Below, piece by piece: positions 32,045 to 34,330 of a DNA stretch of 64,000 bases (position 1 is its first letter; each line of letters starts with the position of its first letter). Source of the DNA: Deltaproteobacteria bacterium (GTDB lineage: Bacteria > Desulfobacterota > Desulfobacteria > Desulfobacterales > ETH-SRB1); assembly GCA_030262895.1 (NCBI GenBank), contig JAJSZW010000002.1:11692-75691 (forward strand). Direction: 5' to 3'. The notes under the pieces were generated by a model. That model saw nothing but the letters and a program-made list of their open reading frames with translations, did no database searches and was not told where the DNA came from. The position numbers were made by a program, and so were the translations under genes.

Positions 32045-32296
32045 TCACTGGATCTCCTTGGCTATCAATTCGCCTTGAATGACCCCAAAGGCCCGCTCAT
32101 AACGATCTATAGACTCCCGGAGCGTTTCTAAAAAGGCATTCGCATAGACCGGACTTGTGACTATCCTGGTGCATAGCTCCGCTTTCTCGCTTCCCTGATA
32201 AAACTGGCCGAAATCAAGCACGAATTCGAAGGCGTTGTGGCCGACCTTGAAGTAGTTGGCGTATCGTCCCTCAAGCTTTCCACCTTTTTTGTCCAA
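32045..32296 (-). CDS. DUF3467-family small protein
   Basis: EGRYANYFKVGHNAFEFVLDFGQ matches my recollection of the DUF3467 signature. TTG start is preceded by GAGGAG with a 6-nt spacer. Confidence 0.6.
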   Translation of the reverse strand: MDKKGGKLEGRYANYFKVGHNAFEFVLDFGQFYQGSEKAELCTRIVTSPVYANAFLETLRESIDRYERAFGVIQGELIAKEIQ

Positions 32297-32354
32297 TCAA
32301 AACTCCTCAAAATAATCATGACCCGTTGTTTTCTCTCTACTACTTTTCTATTTA

Positions 32355-32369
32355 GCAATATAAGTGCCA
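32355..32369 (-). promoter_or_regulatory. Sigma-54 (-24/-12) promoter reading leftwards into the DUF3467 gene and possibly the CIS operon
   Basis: The minus strand reads TGGCAC-ttata-TTGC, an exact GG-N10-GC consensus core, about 47 nt upstream of the RBS and start of ORF 32045..32296. Confidence 0.7.
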
Positions 32370-32464
32370 GGTGTTACTCGTCATGGGAATTCATCCACAA
32401 ATGGAGACAGGACAAGAGTTTTGGCGGGATGCGGTCATTTAGGCTTGAACTCATTATACGAGAA

Positions 32465-32486
32465 GTGTAACAGGTTAATGTTACAC
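32465..32486. promoter_or_regulatory. Palindromic UAS-like site GTGTAACA-N6-TGTTACAC, about 100 bp upstream of the sigma-54 promoter
   Basis: Seen directly in the sequence. The same half-sites recur at 32628-32655. Confidence 0.4.
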
Positions 32487-32614
32487 AATTCAGGTTGACT
32501 CAAGAAAAAAGAGGGAATGCGAAGGCACAAAGGAATAGGATGAAGTGTCAAAAGGTGCGGGAAATCGATGGTTTAATCGGAACGGAAGGGTGAGAATAAA
32601 AGGGGGGAGTGAGG

Positions 32615-32655
32615 TGTCACATCATTATGTAACAGCCAAGGGTCATAATGTTACA
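32615..32655. promoter_or_regulatory. Second UAS-like cluster: TGTCACA, then TGTAACA-N14-TGTTACA
   Basis: Half-sites are identical to those at 32465-32486. It lies ~260-300 bp upstream of the sigma-54 promoter, just downstream of the activator gene stop. Confidence 0.35.
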
Positions 32656-32680
32656 GTATTTTGCTGATAAGATAGTCCAT

Positions 32681-34018
32681 TTATTGTGAGCTACTTATAT
32701 GGTATTTCGCCATCTTACGGTAAAGGGTCATCCGGGACCAGTGGAGTTTCTGGGCTGCCTTGCTTTTGTTCCACTTGGTGGCGAAGAGGACGGAAAGGAC
32801 CCTGTCTCGTTCCTTTTCCTGAAGCCATTCTGTTTCCTCGAATCGCCTCTGGAACGTCTTCGGCAGGTCCATTAAGGCGATCTTCCAGGAAGAGAGGTTG
32901 ATAAAGGTGGCCTCGATGAGGTTCTTCAGCTCGCGCACATTGCCAGGCCAATCGTAGCGGAACAGTAAATCCAAGGCTTCTTCTGTGAAGCCTTCGACTT
33001 CGCGGCCGAACCGCTGATTGAACTTGCTGATGTAGTGCTTCAGCAAGGAAGGAATGTCCTCCTTCCGGTCGCGTAAAGGGGGCAGGTGGATCCGGGCCAC
33101 ATTGAGCCGGTAATAGAGGTCTTTTCTGAAGTTGCCTTTTTCCATCAATTGTTCCAGGTCGCTATTTGTCGCACCGATAACCCGGACGTTTATGGGGATT
33201 GCCCCCTTGCCCCCAAGACGGCAAACCTCTTTTTTTTCGGTAGTTCTCAGGATCTTCATCTGCGCATAAGGGCTCATGTCGCCGATCTCGTCCAGAAATA
33301 CGGTTCCACCCTCGGCCAACTCGAATTTACCTCGTTTCGAAGCAACGGCCCCTGTAAAGGCCCCTCGTTCGTAACCAAACATCTCGCTTTCTACCAGGCT
33401 CTCTGGAAGGGCTGCGCAGTTGATACATACAAGAGGCTTCTTATGCCTCGGGCTGTTCTGGTGGATCAACTCGGCTACCAGCTCCTTGCCTGTGCCGGTC
33501 TCGCCTGTGATAAGGACGGTGCAGTCTGTCGTGGCAACATTAATGAGATAAGCCTTGATTTCTCGCATTGCCGCACTGTCACCGATCATCGGCTCGTTAA
33601 TACCTGTTTCCGAAAGGCTTCTCTTATGGTACGAAAGGTTTCGATTGACACTTGCTATCAATTCCTCGTACGAGACGGGCCATTTGAAATAATCCGTGAC
33701 CCCAGCCCTTAAAGCCGCAATAACCAGCGCTTCAGAGCTATTTCTGGCGATCAGGAAGAGCGGGACTTCTCTGTCCTGCCGGCGGATCTGCGCTACTGTC
33801 TTCAGTCCATCCATGCTATTGTCGCCAAAAGAGCCTATGATCACGAGATCCAGATTCCCGGCTTGGAAAAACCGGAGGACACTTGTTTGGTCCAAGGCTT
33901 CGATGACCTCAAATCCATGGTGAAATAAACGACCTTTAAGATCTTTACACAAGATCTCATCCCCTTCAGCGATCAATATTGCCGGATTATTCATGAGCCA
34001 CCTCCCTGTGAAAGTCAT
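32681..34018 (-). CDS. NtrC-family sigma-54-dependent response regulator (receiver + AAA+ + Fis-type HTH)
   Basis: Receiver ILIAEGDE...DLVIIG. Walker A GETGTGKE. GAFTGA loop (ERGAFTGA). C-terminal HTH KAAQKLHWSRMTLYRKMAKY. The probable true start is MNNPAIL at 33994. Confidence 0.9.
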   Translation of the reverse strand: MTFTGRWLMNNPAILIAEGDEILCKDLKGRLFHHGFEVIEALDQTSVLRFFQAGNLDLVIIGSFGDNSMDGLKTVAQIRRQDREVPLFLIARNSSEALVIAALRAGVTDYFKWPVSYEELIASVNRNLSYHKRSLSETGINEPMIGDSAAMREIKAYLINVATTDCTVLITGETGTGKELVAELIHQNSPRHKKPLVCINCAALPESLVESEMFGYERGAFTGAVASKRGKFELAEGGTVFLDEIGDMSPYAQMKILRTTEKKEVCRLGGKGAIPINVRVIGATNSDLEQLMEKGNFRKDLYYRLNVARIHLPPLRDRKEDIPSLLKHYISKFNQRFGREVEGFTEEALDLLFRYDWPGNVRELKNLIEATFINLSSWKIALMDLPKTFQRRFEETEWLQEKERDRVLSVLFATKWNKSKAAQKLHWSRMTLYRKMAKYHISSSQ

Positions 34019-34090
34019 GTGTTAATAAATCCTGACGAAGTAATGCTTGATTCTCCTTTTTGTTTTTTTGTTAACTGAAAATGTTGTTGA

Positions 34091-34105
34091 GCGAATATTG
34101 TGCCA
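34091..34105 (-). promoter_or_regulatory. Weaker sigma-54-like promoter upstream of the activator gene
   Basis: The minus strand reads TGGCAC-aatat-TCGC. GG-N10-GC spacing is kept but the -12 box is TCGC rather than TTGC. Confidence 0.3.
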
Positions 34106-34228
34106 GGGTGAAGAAAGCCAGAGAACAGTTGCGCCTATATGATTGTAACATATTGATATACAAATATATTGTTGCTTGAACTCAGCGTTCCTGGTAAGTC
34201 GTAGAACGAAGGAAAAACTGTGCCAGTT

Positions 34229-34330
34229 GTCAAGTACGAACTCGAAGTTGTGGTGGCCGACCTTGAAGTAGTTGGGGTATCGTCCCTCAAGCTTTGTGTC
34301 ATTCCGAAAGGCCTCAGATTCATAGTTCAT
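34229..34330 (-). pseudogene. Truncated duplicate of the DUF3467 gene (first ~34 codons only)
   Basis: KLEGRYPNYFKVGHHNFEFVLD compares with KLEGRYANYFKVGHNAFEFVLD in ORF 32045..32296. Nucleotide identity is obvious over ~65 bp (ggccgaccttgaagtagttgg.gtatcgtccctcaagcttt). The rest of track ORF 34022..34330 has no similarity. Confidence 0.6.

What the first reader, a model, noticed from the sequence alone, without database searches (positions are those of the whole stretch)
32045..34330. Sigma-54 control module at the head of the CIS locus: perfect -24/-12 promoter, palindromic UAS pairs, NtrC-type activator and duplicated DUF3467 gene
On the minus strand, TGGCAC-N5-TTGC (32355-32369) sits upstream of a DUF3467 gene with a strong GAGGAG RBS.

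The half-sites TGTAACA/TGTTACA occur as palindromes ~100 bp and ~260-300 bp further upstream. This is the classic enhancer geometry.

The adjacent gene is a receiver-AAA+-HTH sigma-54 activator with an intact GAFTGA loop.

A truncated copy of the DUF3467 gene (34229-34330) lies upstream of the activator. A weaker sigma-54-like box (34091-34105) lies in between, hinting at a duplication and possible autoregulation.

I found no other convincing promoter between here and the sheath genes. The CIS may therefore be fired from this two-component/sigma-54 circuit, a mode of CIS regulation I have not seen described.
Basis: partly seen in the sequence, partly recalled or inferred. Interest (0 to 1): 0.65.

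Follow-up and report, generated by a model that had tools for sequence, protein, structure and literature searches.

The report
Sigma-54 switch cassette heading an eCIS
A dedicated sigma-54 activator, its enhancer, its promoter and a small DUF3467 gene sit at the head of a phage-tail-like injection-system operon. The same cassette recurs in at least six phyla, mostly on such injection systems, and I found no description of it in print.

Summary
An exact TGGCAC-N5-TTGC box lies 73 nt upstream of the DUF3467 gene. Two TGTAACA/TGTTACA palindromes lie about 105 and 275 bp further upstream. A GAFTGA-bearing activator gene is adjacent, and a 66-nt DUF3467 fragment lies upstream of it.

Comparative data extend the finding:
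- In over 100 related loci from Desulfobacterota, Methylomirabilota, Acidobacteriota, Binatia, Gammaproteobacteria and Planctomycetota, an orthologous activator usually precedes DUF3467.
- The box and palindromes keep their positions.
- The 315-nt enhancer-promoter is better conserved than the coding sequence.

In an orthologous Seep-SRB2 locus, three metatranscriptomes show RNA beginning 12-15 nt past the predicted start. RNA coverage then continues through DUF3467 into the sheath gene.

- The activator's receiver lacks the phospho-acceptor aspartate, so this is probably not a classical two-component circuit.
- The cassette is not CIS-specific. It also heads Tad-pilus, polysaccharide-export and secreted-protease loci.
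- The 311-bp gap before the CIS genes holds a high-copy MITE-like repeat, not a dedicated leader.

The function of DUF3467 remains unknown. I found no literature linking it, or sigma-54, to eCIS.

The parts
32355..32369 (-). Sigma-54 -24/-12 promoter TGGCAC-TTATA-TTGC. The predicted +1 is near 32343, giving a 5'UTR of about 47 nt.
   Evidence: Exact match. The box is exact upstream of DUF3467 in L001-L009, L012-L016, L018, L020 and L024-L026. A match of at least 9/10 is present in 34 of 63 metagenome loci. In orthologue L008, RNA contigs start 12-15 nt after the predicted +1.
32466..32485 (.). Proximal enhancer (UAS): palindrome TGTAACA-N6-TGTTACA, centred about 130 bp upstream of the predicted +1.
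   Evidence: It is conserved at the same offset in L001-L008, L012, L014-L016 and L018. It is also present in L024, L027, L028, L030, L031 and L033.
32615..32655 (.). Distal enhancer cluster: TGTAACA-N14-TGTTACA-N6-TGTGACA, centred about 300 bp upstream of +1.
32370..32680 (-). Whole enhancer-promoter region. It is more conserved than the coding sequence, and it includes invariant blocks between the proximal UAS and the -24 box.
   Evidence: Window versus L005/6/8/12/16: 78-82% nt identity here, 61-66% for the DUF3467 CDS, and 16-37% for the 5'UTR. Alignment. A stop-free 26-codon frame shows no third-position bias, so it is not coding (plus reading of the alignment). No Rfam match.
32045..32296 (-). 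DUF3467 gene (83 aa, TTG start, GAGGAG RBS). It is the first cistron of the sigma-54 transcript.
   Evidence: PF11950 at 53 bits. 736 relatives were found, and the best 120 are 66-100% identical. It is the first gene of eCIS loci in L001-L013.
32681..33994 (-). Sigma-54 enhancer-binding protein (437 aa): degenerate receiver, AAA+ domain with GAFTGA, and Fis-type HTH.
   Evidence: Start confirmed by exact look-up. The phospho-acceptor Asp is replaced by Gly. Orthologues at 44-74% identity lie directly upstream of DUF3467 in 13 of 22 genome loci and in 24 of 29 metagenome loci with enough flank.
34091..34105 (-). Second sigma-54-like box, TGGCACAATATTCGC, upstream of the activator gene.
   Evidence: The box YGGCACARTATTCGCT and about 130 bp around it are conserved upstream of the orthologous activators in L005-L007, L012 and L013. 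No palindromes accompany it.
34230..34295 (-). 66-nt fragment of the DUF3467 gene (codons 7-28), a lineage-specific duplication remnant. Both copies end at CTTGAY.
   Evidence: 91% identity. It is absent at the equivalent place in L005-L013. The 102-codon ORF has no Pfam hit.
34508..34536 (-). Best sigma-70-like promoter match of the region (TTGACA-17-TATTGT). It is a candidate constitutive promoter for the activator.
   Evidence: 10 of 12. A metatranscriptome contig from a close strain spans 34453 to 33727. This is weak evidence.
31759..31927 (.). MITE-like dispersed repeat (25-nt terminal inverted repeats) inserted in the DUF3467-CIS gap.
   Evidence: Inverted repeat. Summed metagenome depth is 25,928-160,510 against 11-52 for the flanks, with many loose ends at 31758/31759 and 31923-31928. 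No U-run terminator.
30680..30790 (.). Second, unrelated MITE-like repeat (27-bp perfect arms) between the first two CIS-side genes.
   Evidence: Depth is 9,289-559,144. An X4 contig lacks the element, joining 30681 to 30791.
1..31733 (-). eCIS (Afp/PVC-like) operon, the probable cargo of the promoter. Gene order: CarboxypepD_reg protein, 112-aa basic protein, sheath x2, tube, tail-assembly-chaperone-like, sheath, tube, Pvc16_N, WHD-AAA ATPase, eCIS_core, tube initiator/LysM, spike, PAAR, gp25, baseplate J x2, tail-fibre-like proteins and effector candidates.

Best explanation
The stretch is a self-contained sigma-54 ignition cassette.

Proposed mechanism:
1. An NtrC-family enhancer-binding protein is made, probably from its own upstream promoter(s).
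2. It has an intact AAA+/GAFTGA motor and a Fis-type HTH, but a receiver domain that has lost the phospho-acceptor aspartate.
3. It binds the TGTAACA/TGTTACA palindromes centred about 130 and 300 bp upstream of the start site.
4. By DNA looping and ATP hydrolysis it opens the closed complex of sigma-54 RNA polymerase at TGGCAC-N5-TTGC (32369..32355).
5. Transcription starts near 32343. The 83-aa DUF3467 protein is translated first.
6. No intrinsic terminator or recognisable promoter intervenes, so transcription most likely reads on into the 31-kb eCIS operon. It crosses two recently inserted MITE-like repeats on the way.

The unit (activator + about 300-bp enhancer/promoter + DUF3467) is an evolutionary module found in at least six phyla. 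It is placed mostly in front of eCIS loci, but also in front of Tad-pilus, polysaccharide-export and secreted-protease loci.

Shown here:
- the motifs and their conservation;
- the synteny;
- the degenerate receiver;
- the RNA 5' end at the promoter and continuous RNA into the sheath gene, in one orthologue.

Inferred:
- that this activator binds these palindromes;
- read-through in the window itself;
- the nature of the input signal;
- the role of DUF3467. My guess is a partner or feedback modulator of the activator.
For: Motifs:
- Exact box and palindromes, far above chance.
- Pfam domains and GAFTGA/Walker motifs.

Synteny:
- DUF3467 is the first gene of eCIS loci in all 13 loci fetched by identity.
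- eCIS genes follow it in 12 of 22 genome loci.
- eCIS genes follow it in 31 of 49 metagenome loci by tblastn, plus 2 more by Pfam.
- An orthologous activator lies directly upstream in 13 of 22 genome loci and 24 of 29 metagenome loci.

Conservation:
- Box and palindromes are conserved in position.
- The enhancer-promoter is 78-82% identical where the CDS is 61-66% and the 5'UTR is unalignable.

Operon structure:
- Gaps between DUF3467 and the next CIS gene are only 58-140 bp in relatives.
- No terminator-like or promoter-like site lies in those gaps.

RNA in orthologue L008:
- In three metatranscriptomes, exact RNA contigs begin at 9840/9843/9840. The +1 predicted from the box (9802-9817) is about 9828.
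- Depth is 0.1-0.5 upstream and 16-20 downstream.
- Coverage continues through DUF3467 and the gap into the sheath gene and beyond.
Against: - There is no transcript data for the window's own organism. Metatranscriptome contigs there cover only relatives' activator genes and a few short CIS pieces.
- RNA contigs carry no strand and no true ends, so the L008 5' end is approximate. Continuity of coverage is not proof of a single transcript.
- In L008 the sheath contig is 2-2.7 times deeper than the DUF3467 contig. This could mean an extra internal promoter or differential RNA stability.
- In the window, a 170-bp repeat with a 25-bp stem and a 27-bp perfect hairpin lie in the path. They could cause polarity or processing.
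- Binding of this activator to the palindromes is inferred only from co-occurrence.
- L008/L014 and L024 have the enhancer and promoter but no activator gene within 10 kb.
Confidence: 0.75

Rival explanations
1. The sigma-54 promoter serves only the small DUF3467 gene. The CIS genes have their own promoter(s) in the 311-bp, 127-bp or 191-bp gaps, possibly brought in by the inserted repeats. The activator would then control the CIS only indirectly, or not at all.
For: - The window has an unusually long gap with a structured insertion.
- In L008 the sheath RNA contig is 2-2.7 times deeper than the DUF3467 contig.
- Promoters of Desulfobacterota may escape the simple consensus scan.
Against: - In relatives the gap is 58-140 bp with no promoter-like or terminator-like site.
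- RNA coverage in L008 is continuous across the gap.
- The strict position of DUF3467 directly in front of whole operons in dozens of loci is hard to explain if it were a separate unit.
Confidence: 0.15
2. DUF3467 is a structural or assembly component of the injection system itself (for example a chaperone or tube-related factor) and not part of the regulatory module. Its position next to the promoter would be incidental.
For: - Most occurrences are in front of eCIS genes.
- There is a short, non-significant resemblance of its N-terminal motif to a phage tail tube protein in the PDB (E 0.82).
Against: - The same activator-DUF3467 pair heads Tad-pilus (L026), polysaccharide-export (L025, L027, L062, L063), protease (L020, L021, L072, L097) and subtilase/LanC (L107) loci.
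- DUF3467 stays 60-90% identical while sheath proteins fall to 30-40%.
- The window's tube proteins do not share the motif.
- It travels with the activator and enhancer, not with any one CIS gene order.
Confidence: 0.08
3. The cassette in this window is decayed and silent. The activator would be dead (no phospho-acceptor), there is a gene fragment upstream, and mobile repeats have invaded the operon.
For: - The receiver lacks the Asp.
- A DUF3467 fragment lies upstream.
- Two MITE-like insertions lie in the operon.
Against: - The Asp-less receiver is shared by orthologues from several phyla, so it is an ancestral, selected state.
- All AAA+ motifs and the HTH are intact.
- All CIS genes are open.
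- Close relatives' activator genes are abundantly represented in seep metatranscriptomes.
Confidence: 0.04

Closest known systems
Sigma-54/EBP control of type VI secretion clusters (VasH of Vibrio cholerae; Sfa2/Sfa3 of Pseudomonas aeruginosa; from my own knowledge of Bernard et al. 2011)
   Same: - A dedicated enhancer-binding protein is encoded inside or beside a contractile-injection gene cluster.
- It activates -24/-12 promoters in front of the structural genes.
   Different: - The cargo here is an extracellular Afp/PVC-type CIS (Pvc16_N, WHD-AAA ATPase, eCIS_core), not a membrane-anchored T6SS.
- The activator has an Asp-less receiver.
- A conserved DUF3467 leader gene and a 300-bp conserved enhancer travel with it.
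- The same cassette serves non-CIS cargo.
FleQ/FlrA-type enhancer-binding proteins (from my own knowledge)
   Same: - An N-terminal receiver-like domain lacks the phosphorylation residues.
- Control is therefore by partner proteins or ligands, not by a kinase.
- The targets are extracellular structures (flagella, Pel/Psl, adhesins).
   Different: - No FleN-like ATPase gene is adjacent.
- No test of c-di-GMP-binding residues was made.
- NCBIfam scores are far below every equivalog cut-off.
- The binding site differs.
PspF-PspA circuit (from my own knowledge)
   Same: A sigma-54 operon whose first gene encodes a small protein that feeds back on the activator. This is the logic I propose for DUF3467.
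   Different: - DUF3467 has no sequence or fold similarity to PspA.
- PspF has no receiver domain.
- The feedback role of DUF3467 is a guess.
Known eCIS regulators (AnfA1, the RfaH-like antiterminator of the Serratia Afp locus, from my own knowledge; Afp6 is listed as a TetR-family regulator in dbeCIS, PMC6899500)
   Same: A regulator gene placed at the 5' end of an eCIS operon.
   Different: - The mechanism is different: sigma-54 activation from a remote enhancer.
- Neither sigma-54, a promoter, nor DUF3467 is mentioned in the dbeCIS paper.
PEP-CTERM/exosortase PrsR (TIGR02915) response regulators
   Same: - One of the best NCBIfam hits for the activator (332 bits).
- Sigma-54 control of an extracellular-matrix gene set.
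   Different: - The score is below the 502.6-bit cut-off, so it is not a member.
- No PrsK kinase is adjacent.
- The receiver is degenerate.

Membership tests
Sigma-54-dependent (-24/-12) promoter | GG and GC dinucleotides exactly 10 bp apart, within TGGCAC-N5-TTGC | tested here: met
   Exact 15/15 match at 32369..32355.
Sigma-54-dependent (-24/-12) promoter | Conserved in orthologous loci at a fixed place relative to enhancer and gene | tested here: met
   A match of at least 9/10 is present in 34 of 63 metagenome loci.
Sigma-54-dependent (-24/-12) promoter | Transcript 5' end about 12 nt downstream of the GC | tested here: inconclusive
   No usable RNA exists for the window's organism. In orthologue L008, contigs of three metatranscriptomes begin 12-15 nt past the predicted +1, with a depth step of at least 40-fold. 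These are contig ends, not mapped 5' ends.
Sigma-54-dependent (-24/-12) promoter | rpoN present in the genome | not testable with these tools
A second exact box at 40945-40959 suggests the sigma factor is in use.
Bacterial enhancer-binding protein (NtrC family) | AAA+ sigma-54 interaction domain with Walker A, Walker B and the GAFTGA loop | tested here: met
   PF00158 at 227 bits. GETGTGKE, GAFTGA and FLDEIG motifs.
Bacterial enhancer-binding protein (NtrC family) | C-terminal Fis-type HTH and an upstream inverted-repeat binding site 80-150 bp from the promoter | tested here: met
   HTH_8 at 41.7 bits. Palindromes at the expected distances and conserved. Physical binding was not tested.
Two-component response regulator | Phospho-acceptor Asp at the end of beta-3, plus the acidic pair after beta-1 | tested here: not met
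   In an alignment with NtrC, D54 aligns with Gly (VIIGS) and the acidic pair reads EGDE. In the nine other non-Methylomirabilis orthologues aligned, the position is Gly in eight and Phe in L005. Only the Methylomirabilis orthologues L010/L017 keep Asp.
Two-component response regulator | Cognate histidine kinase gene adjacent | tested here: not met
   The upstream neighbours are an unknown 110-aa ORF and an acyltransferase. No kinase lies next to the activator in L005-L013.
Extracellular contractile injection system (Afp/PVC-like eCIS) | Sheath, tube, Pvc16_N terminator, Afp15-type WHD-AAA ATPase, eCIS_core/DUF4157, spike, PAAR, gp25 and baseplate J in one operon | tested here: met
DUF3467 (PF11950) | Score above the Pfam gathering threshold | tested here: met
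   53.4 bits against a 25-bit cut-off. The upstream 102-codon ORF has no hit, so it is not a member.
MITE-like dispersed repeat (elements at 31759-31927 and 30680-30790) | Terminal inverted repeats, high copy number, and sites with and without the element | tested here: met
   Arms of 25 and 27 nt. Depth is 100-10,000 times that of the flanks in four data sets. A contig lacking the 30681-30791 element was seen. No empty site was seen for the other element, and target-site duplications were not examined.
SecB-like chaperone (considered for DUF3467) | Profile similarity to SecB | tested here: not met
   hhalign probability 0.07. No significant PDB sequence or fold match.

The most novel reading that the evidence does not exclude
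The Asp-less activator and DUF3467 form a two-protein switch. DUF3467 would be made as the first product of the sigma-54 transcript. It would bind the activator, or the sigma-54 closed/open complex, and set the firing threshold, either as feedback brake or as co-activator. The activator + enhancer + DUF3467 unit would then be a horizontally mobile, plug-in ignition cassette. Bacteria of many phyla would use it to turn on costly extracellular machines: eCIS above all, but also Tad pili, capsule export and secreted proteases. This would give DUF3467 its first function and give eCIS their first general trigger.
Probability: 0.25. Interest if true: 0.8.

Novelty: new variant of a known kind. Interest (0 to 1): 0.62.

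Why it matters
Extracellular contractile injection systems are widespread and are being re-engineered as protein-delivery devices. What switches them on in nature is largely unknown, and most hosts are uncultured.

A dedicated, conserved sigma-54 cassette gives three things:
- a predicted regulator, binding site and promoter that can be moved into a laboratory host to force or study expression of silent eCIS loci;
- a marker (activator + DUF3467 + TGTAACA palindromes) for finding co-regulated cargo;
- a concrete, testable context for a domain of unknown function with hundreds of close relatives.

This locus comes from a cold-seep Desulfobacterales MAG, and relatives of it lie in Seep-SRB2. The finding therefore also bears on how sulfate-reducing partners of methane-oxidising archaea regulate cell-cell interaction machinery.

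Tried and rejected
- Structure of DUF3467: the AF2 model has mean pLDDT 64 with a beta-beta-beta-alpha layout. No PDB fold match reached E below 0.1. The weak PC4/Pur-alpha and LptE hits are not evidence.
- PDB sequence profile search: nothing significant.
- SecB hypothesis: hhalign probability 0.07.
- Tube-protein mimic idea: the window's tube N-termini are unlike DUF3467.
- PHROGs: only an unknown-function family at E 0.005. NCBIfam: no hit for DUF3467.
- Hidden gene in the conserved enhancer: a stop-free 26-codon frame exists in all loci. Substitutions between the window and L005 fall 5/3/5 on codon positions 1/2/3, and no RBS is present, so I rejected it as coding.
- ncRNA: no Rfam match at E up to 1.
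- IHF site: none found by eye. This was not a formal test.
- TSS for the window itself: the metatranscriptomes that hold words of the region contain only relatives.
- Literature: DUF3467 appears in one unrelated paper. No paper joins eCIS with sigma-54, RpoN or enhancer-binding proteins other than T6SS reviews. The Seep-SRB and dbeCIS papers do not discuss regulation of this kind.

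
Full report
**Observation.**

Reading the minus strand and scanning for motifs confirms every element.
- TGGCACTTATATTGC occupies 32369..32355. It is one of two exact TGGCAC-N5-TTGC matches in the 64-kb window.
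- TGTAACA-N6-TGTTACA (32466-32485) and TGTAACA-N14-TGTTACA (32628-32655) are the only such pairs in the window. The expectation is 0.01.
- The distal site continues with a further TGTGACA half-site down to 32615.
- The gene 32296..32045 is a DUF3467 protein (PF11950, 53 bits). It has a TTG start 6 nt after GAGGAG.
- The adjacent gene has Response_reg, Sigma54_activat, AAA_lid_14 and HTH_8 domains.
- It carries GETGTGKE, GAFTGA and Walker B motifs.
- Its true start is the ATG at 33994. That start is preceded by GGGAGG and gives MNNPAILIAEGDE. This is the form in public records (exact look-up) and matches the orthologues.
- A 66-nt direct repeat (91% identity) links codons 7-28 of DUF3467 to 34230-34295, upstream of the activator.
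- Downstream, 31733..1 is a complete Afp/PVC-like eCIS operon.

**Relatives.**

Homologues of the 83-aa protein are numerous and very similar. There were 736 hits, and the best 120 are 66-100% identical.
- Six of them were traced to their contigs. In all 13 loci (L001-L013) DUF3467 is the first gene of an eCIS locus, although the order of CIS genes behind it differs.
- In the loci with enough upstream sequence, a REC-Sigma54_activat-HTH_8 gene lies 0.4-3 kb upstream. L008 is the exception.
- A scan of one genome per species found 22 loci. Their record titles name Desulfobacterota (including Seep-SRB2 and the isolate Desulfonema magnum 4be13), Methylomirabilota, Acidobacteriota, Binatia, Gammaproteobacteria and Phycisphaerae.
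- In these 22 loci, tblastn with the window's proteins finds the orthologous activator (44-74% identity) directly upstream in 13. It finds CIS genes downstream in 12.
- A metagenome scan found 436 relatives, of which 80 loci were kept.
- The activator is present in 24 of the 29 loci with at least 1.8 kb of upstream flank.
- CIS genes follow in 31 of the 49 loci with at least 1 kb of downstream flank. Two more are recognised only by Pfam.

**The promoter and enhancer are conserved.**

- An exact TGGCAC-N5-TTGC box lies 73-326 nt upstream of DUF3467 in L001-L009, L012-L016, L018, L020 and L024-L026. Near-exact boxes occur in most of the rest.
- In the Methylomirabilis loci another gene precedes DUF3467, so the promoter must lie further upstream.
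- The proximal palindrome keeps the same offset from the box, about 105 bp. The distal cluster lies about 170 bp beyond it.
- The whole 315 nt from the distal site to the -12 element is 78-82% identical between the window and L005, L006, L008, L012 and L016.
- Over the same comparisons the DUF3467 coding sequence is 61-66% identical, and the 5'UTR cannot be aligned (16-37%).
- A stop-free 26-codon frame in this region shows no third-position bias and has no RBS, so it is not coding. Rfam finds nothing.
- The region is therefore under selection as DNA. The selection is more than two palindromes and a promoter would need, and I cannot explain the excess.

**Transcripts.**

No RNA data set holds the window's own organism.
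- Seep metatranscriptomes contain contigs of relatives' activator genes (depth up to about 1,200 in X24). They also contain a few short exact pieces of the CIS genes.
- The orthologous Seep-SRB2 locus L008 is held exactly by three replicate metatranscriptomes.
- In L008 the box is at 9802-9817, which predicts +1 near 9828.
- The RNA contigs begin at 9840, 9843 and 9840. Depth is 0.1-0.5 just upstream and 16-20 downstream.
- Coverage then runs through DUF3467 (10001-10276) and the 350-nt gap into the sheath gene (depth about 44) and further on. In the gap, assembly breaks only at a high-copy repeat at 10389-10498.
- Contigs have no strand, and their ends are trimmed, so this is good but not final evidence. 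The start fits the sigma-54 promoter, and co-transcription with the CIS genes is plausible.
- The higher sheath depth leaves room for an additional internal promoter or for differential RNA stability.

**The gap in the window.**

- The 311 bp between DUF3467 and the first CIS-side gene contain a 169-bp element with 25-nt inverted termini (31759-31927).
- A second element with 27-bp perfect arms lies at 30680-30790.
- In four metagenomes and metatranscriptomes both elements have summed depths of about 6,900-560,000, against 0-60 for the flanks. Many contigs run out of them into unrelated sequence.
- One contig lacks the second element.
- Both are dispersed MITE-like repeats and recent arrivals, not a dedicated leader.
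- Without the first element the gap would be about 140 bp, as in relatives (58-140 bp).
- Neither element has a U-run, so neither is an intrinsic terminator. Processing or polarity cannot be excluded.
- The palindromes themselves have ordinary depth.

**Corrections to the interpretation.**

1. *The activator is probably not a phospho-relay response regulator.*
 - Aligned with NtrC, the phospho-acceptor D54 is Gly (VIIGS) and the acidic pair reads EGDE.
 - The nine other non-Methylomirabilis orthologues aligned also lack the Asp (Gly in eight, Phe in L005). Only the Methylomirabilis proteins keep it.
 - No kinase gene is adjacent.
 - The closest functional parallel is the FleQ/FlrA type of activator, which is controlled by partners or ligands.
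2. *The cassette is not CIS-specific.* The same activator-DUF3467 pair precedes other cargo:
 - NusG-like/Wza/Wzz/Wzy polysaccharide-export genes (L025, L027);
 - a Tad pilus operon (L026);
 - papain-like, thermolysin-like or trypsin-like proteases (L020, L021, L043);
 - a subtilase/kinase-like/LanC set (L107).

 DUF3467 therefore belongs to the regulatory unit and not to the injection machine.
3. *Autoregulation is only weakly supported.*
 - The box TGGCACAATATTCGC (34105..34091) and about 130 bp around it are conserved upstream of the orthologous activators of L005-L013. It is probably functional.
 - It has a CGC in place of TGC at -12 and no palindromes nearby.
 - The best sigma-70-like match of the region (34536..34508) lies further upstream.
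4. *The 66-nt DUF3467 fragment is absent at the equivalent place in those loci*.
 - Both copies end in CTTGAY, which suggests a microhomology-mediated patch.
 - L017 carries two full DUF3467 paralogues, so duplication of this gene does occur.

**What DUF3467 does.**

This is unknown.
- The AF2 model (pLDDT 64) has three strands and a long helix.
- It has no significant match in the PDB by fold or by sequence.
- SecB and tube-protein ideas failed.
- It is constantly linked to this activator family and enhancer. It sits first in the transcript. It is far better conserved than the cargo.
- On those grounds my working guess is a partner or feedback modulator of the activator, following PspA/PspF or FleN/FleQ logic. 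I put this at about one in four.

**Novelty.**

- Sigma-54/EBP control is established for some type VI secretion clusters (my own knowledge).
- The T6SS reviews found are the only papers that join RpoN with contractile injection systems.
- For extracellular CIS I found no description. The dbeCIS paper mentions no sigma factor or promoter, and it lists only Afp6 as a TetR-like regulator.
- The Seep-SRB paper does not treat regulation.
- DUF3467 occurs in one unrelated paper.
- Two earlier notes of this scan, from other genomes, mention a sigma-54 box in front of a DUF3467-like first CIS gene and a sigma-54 operon with a protease. These are leads that agree with what I found, not independent evidence.
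- I file the finding as a new variant of a known kind.

**Limits.**

rpoN, the regulon and repeat copy numbers in this genome were therefore not checked.
- All functional statements about binding, signal input and read-through in the window itself are inferences.

Noticed in passing
window 31759-31927 and 30680-30790: Two unrelated MITE-like inverted-repeat elements lie in intergenic gaps of the CIS operon. Their summed depth in seep metagenomes is roughly 100 to 10,000 times that of the flanks. One contig lacks the second element. A different high-copy repeat sits in the equivalent gap of the Seep-SRB2 locus (L008 10389-10498).
   Followed up: partly
window 32370-32680: The non-coding enhancer-promoter region is more conserved between distant loci (78-82% nt) than the DUF3467 coding sequence (61-66%). 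It includes invariant blocks such as CGTATAATGAG and CCATGAC-N-AGTAAC that the palindromes and the -24/-12 box do not explain.
   Followed up: partly
window 40945-40959 (+): This is the second exact TGGCAC-N5-TTGC box of the window, upstream of the 251-aa ORF 41286-42041. It has no TGTAACA palindromes, so a different activator would be needed.
   Followed up: no
window 33994 versus 34018: The activator's ORF can be read from ATG 34018. The start used in public records, and supported by a GGGAGG RBS and by orthologues, is ATG 33994 (437 aa).
   Followed up: yes
window 25654-26040 (-): The 128-aa protein between tube 1 and sheath 3 matches a PHROG tail assembly chaperone family (phrog_508, E 3.5e-6).
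   Followed up: no
L017 4353-4577 and 5762-5956: A Methylomirabilis MAG carries two full DUF3467 paralogues between the activator and the sheath gene. L010, L019 and L021 have a papain-like protease gene just upstream of DUF3467.
   Followed up: no
L008/L014 and L024 (Desulfonema magnum 4be13): The enhancer half-sites, an exact sigma-54 box and DUF3467 are present, but no activator gene lies within 10 kb. In L008 an IS1595-family transposase lies upstream, and a vestige resembling the activator's 3' end precedes the distal site. L024 has no CIS genes behind DUF3467.
   Followed up: partly
window 32281 joined to 34093 (X3 contig): One metagenome contig joins the sequence just upstream of the DUF3467 repeat copy to the second sigma-54-like box, skipping the activator and enhancer. 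It may be a variant architecture or an assembly chimera through the 66-nt repeat.
   Followed up: no
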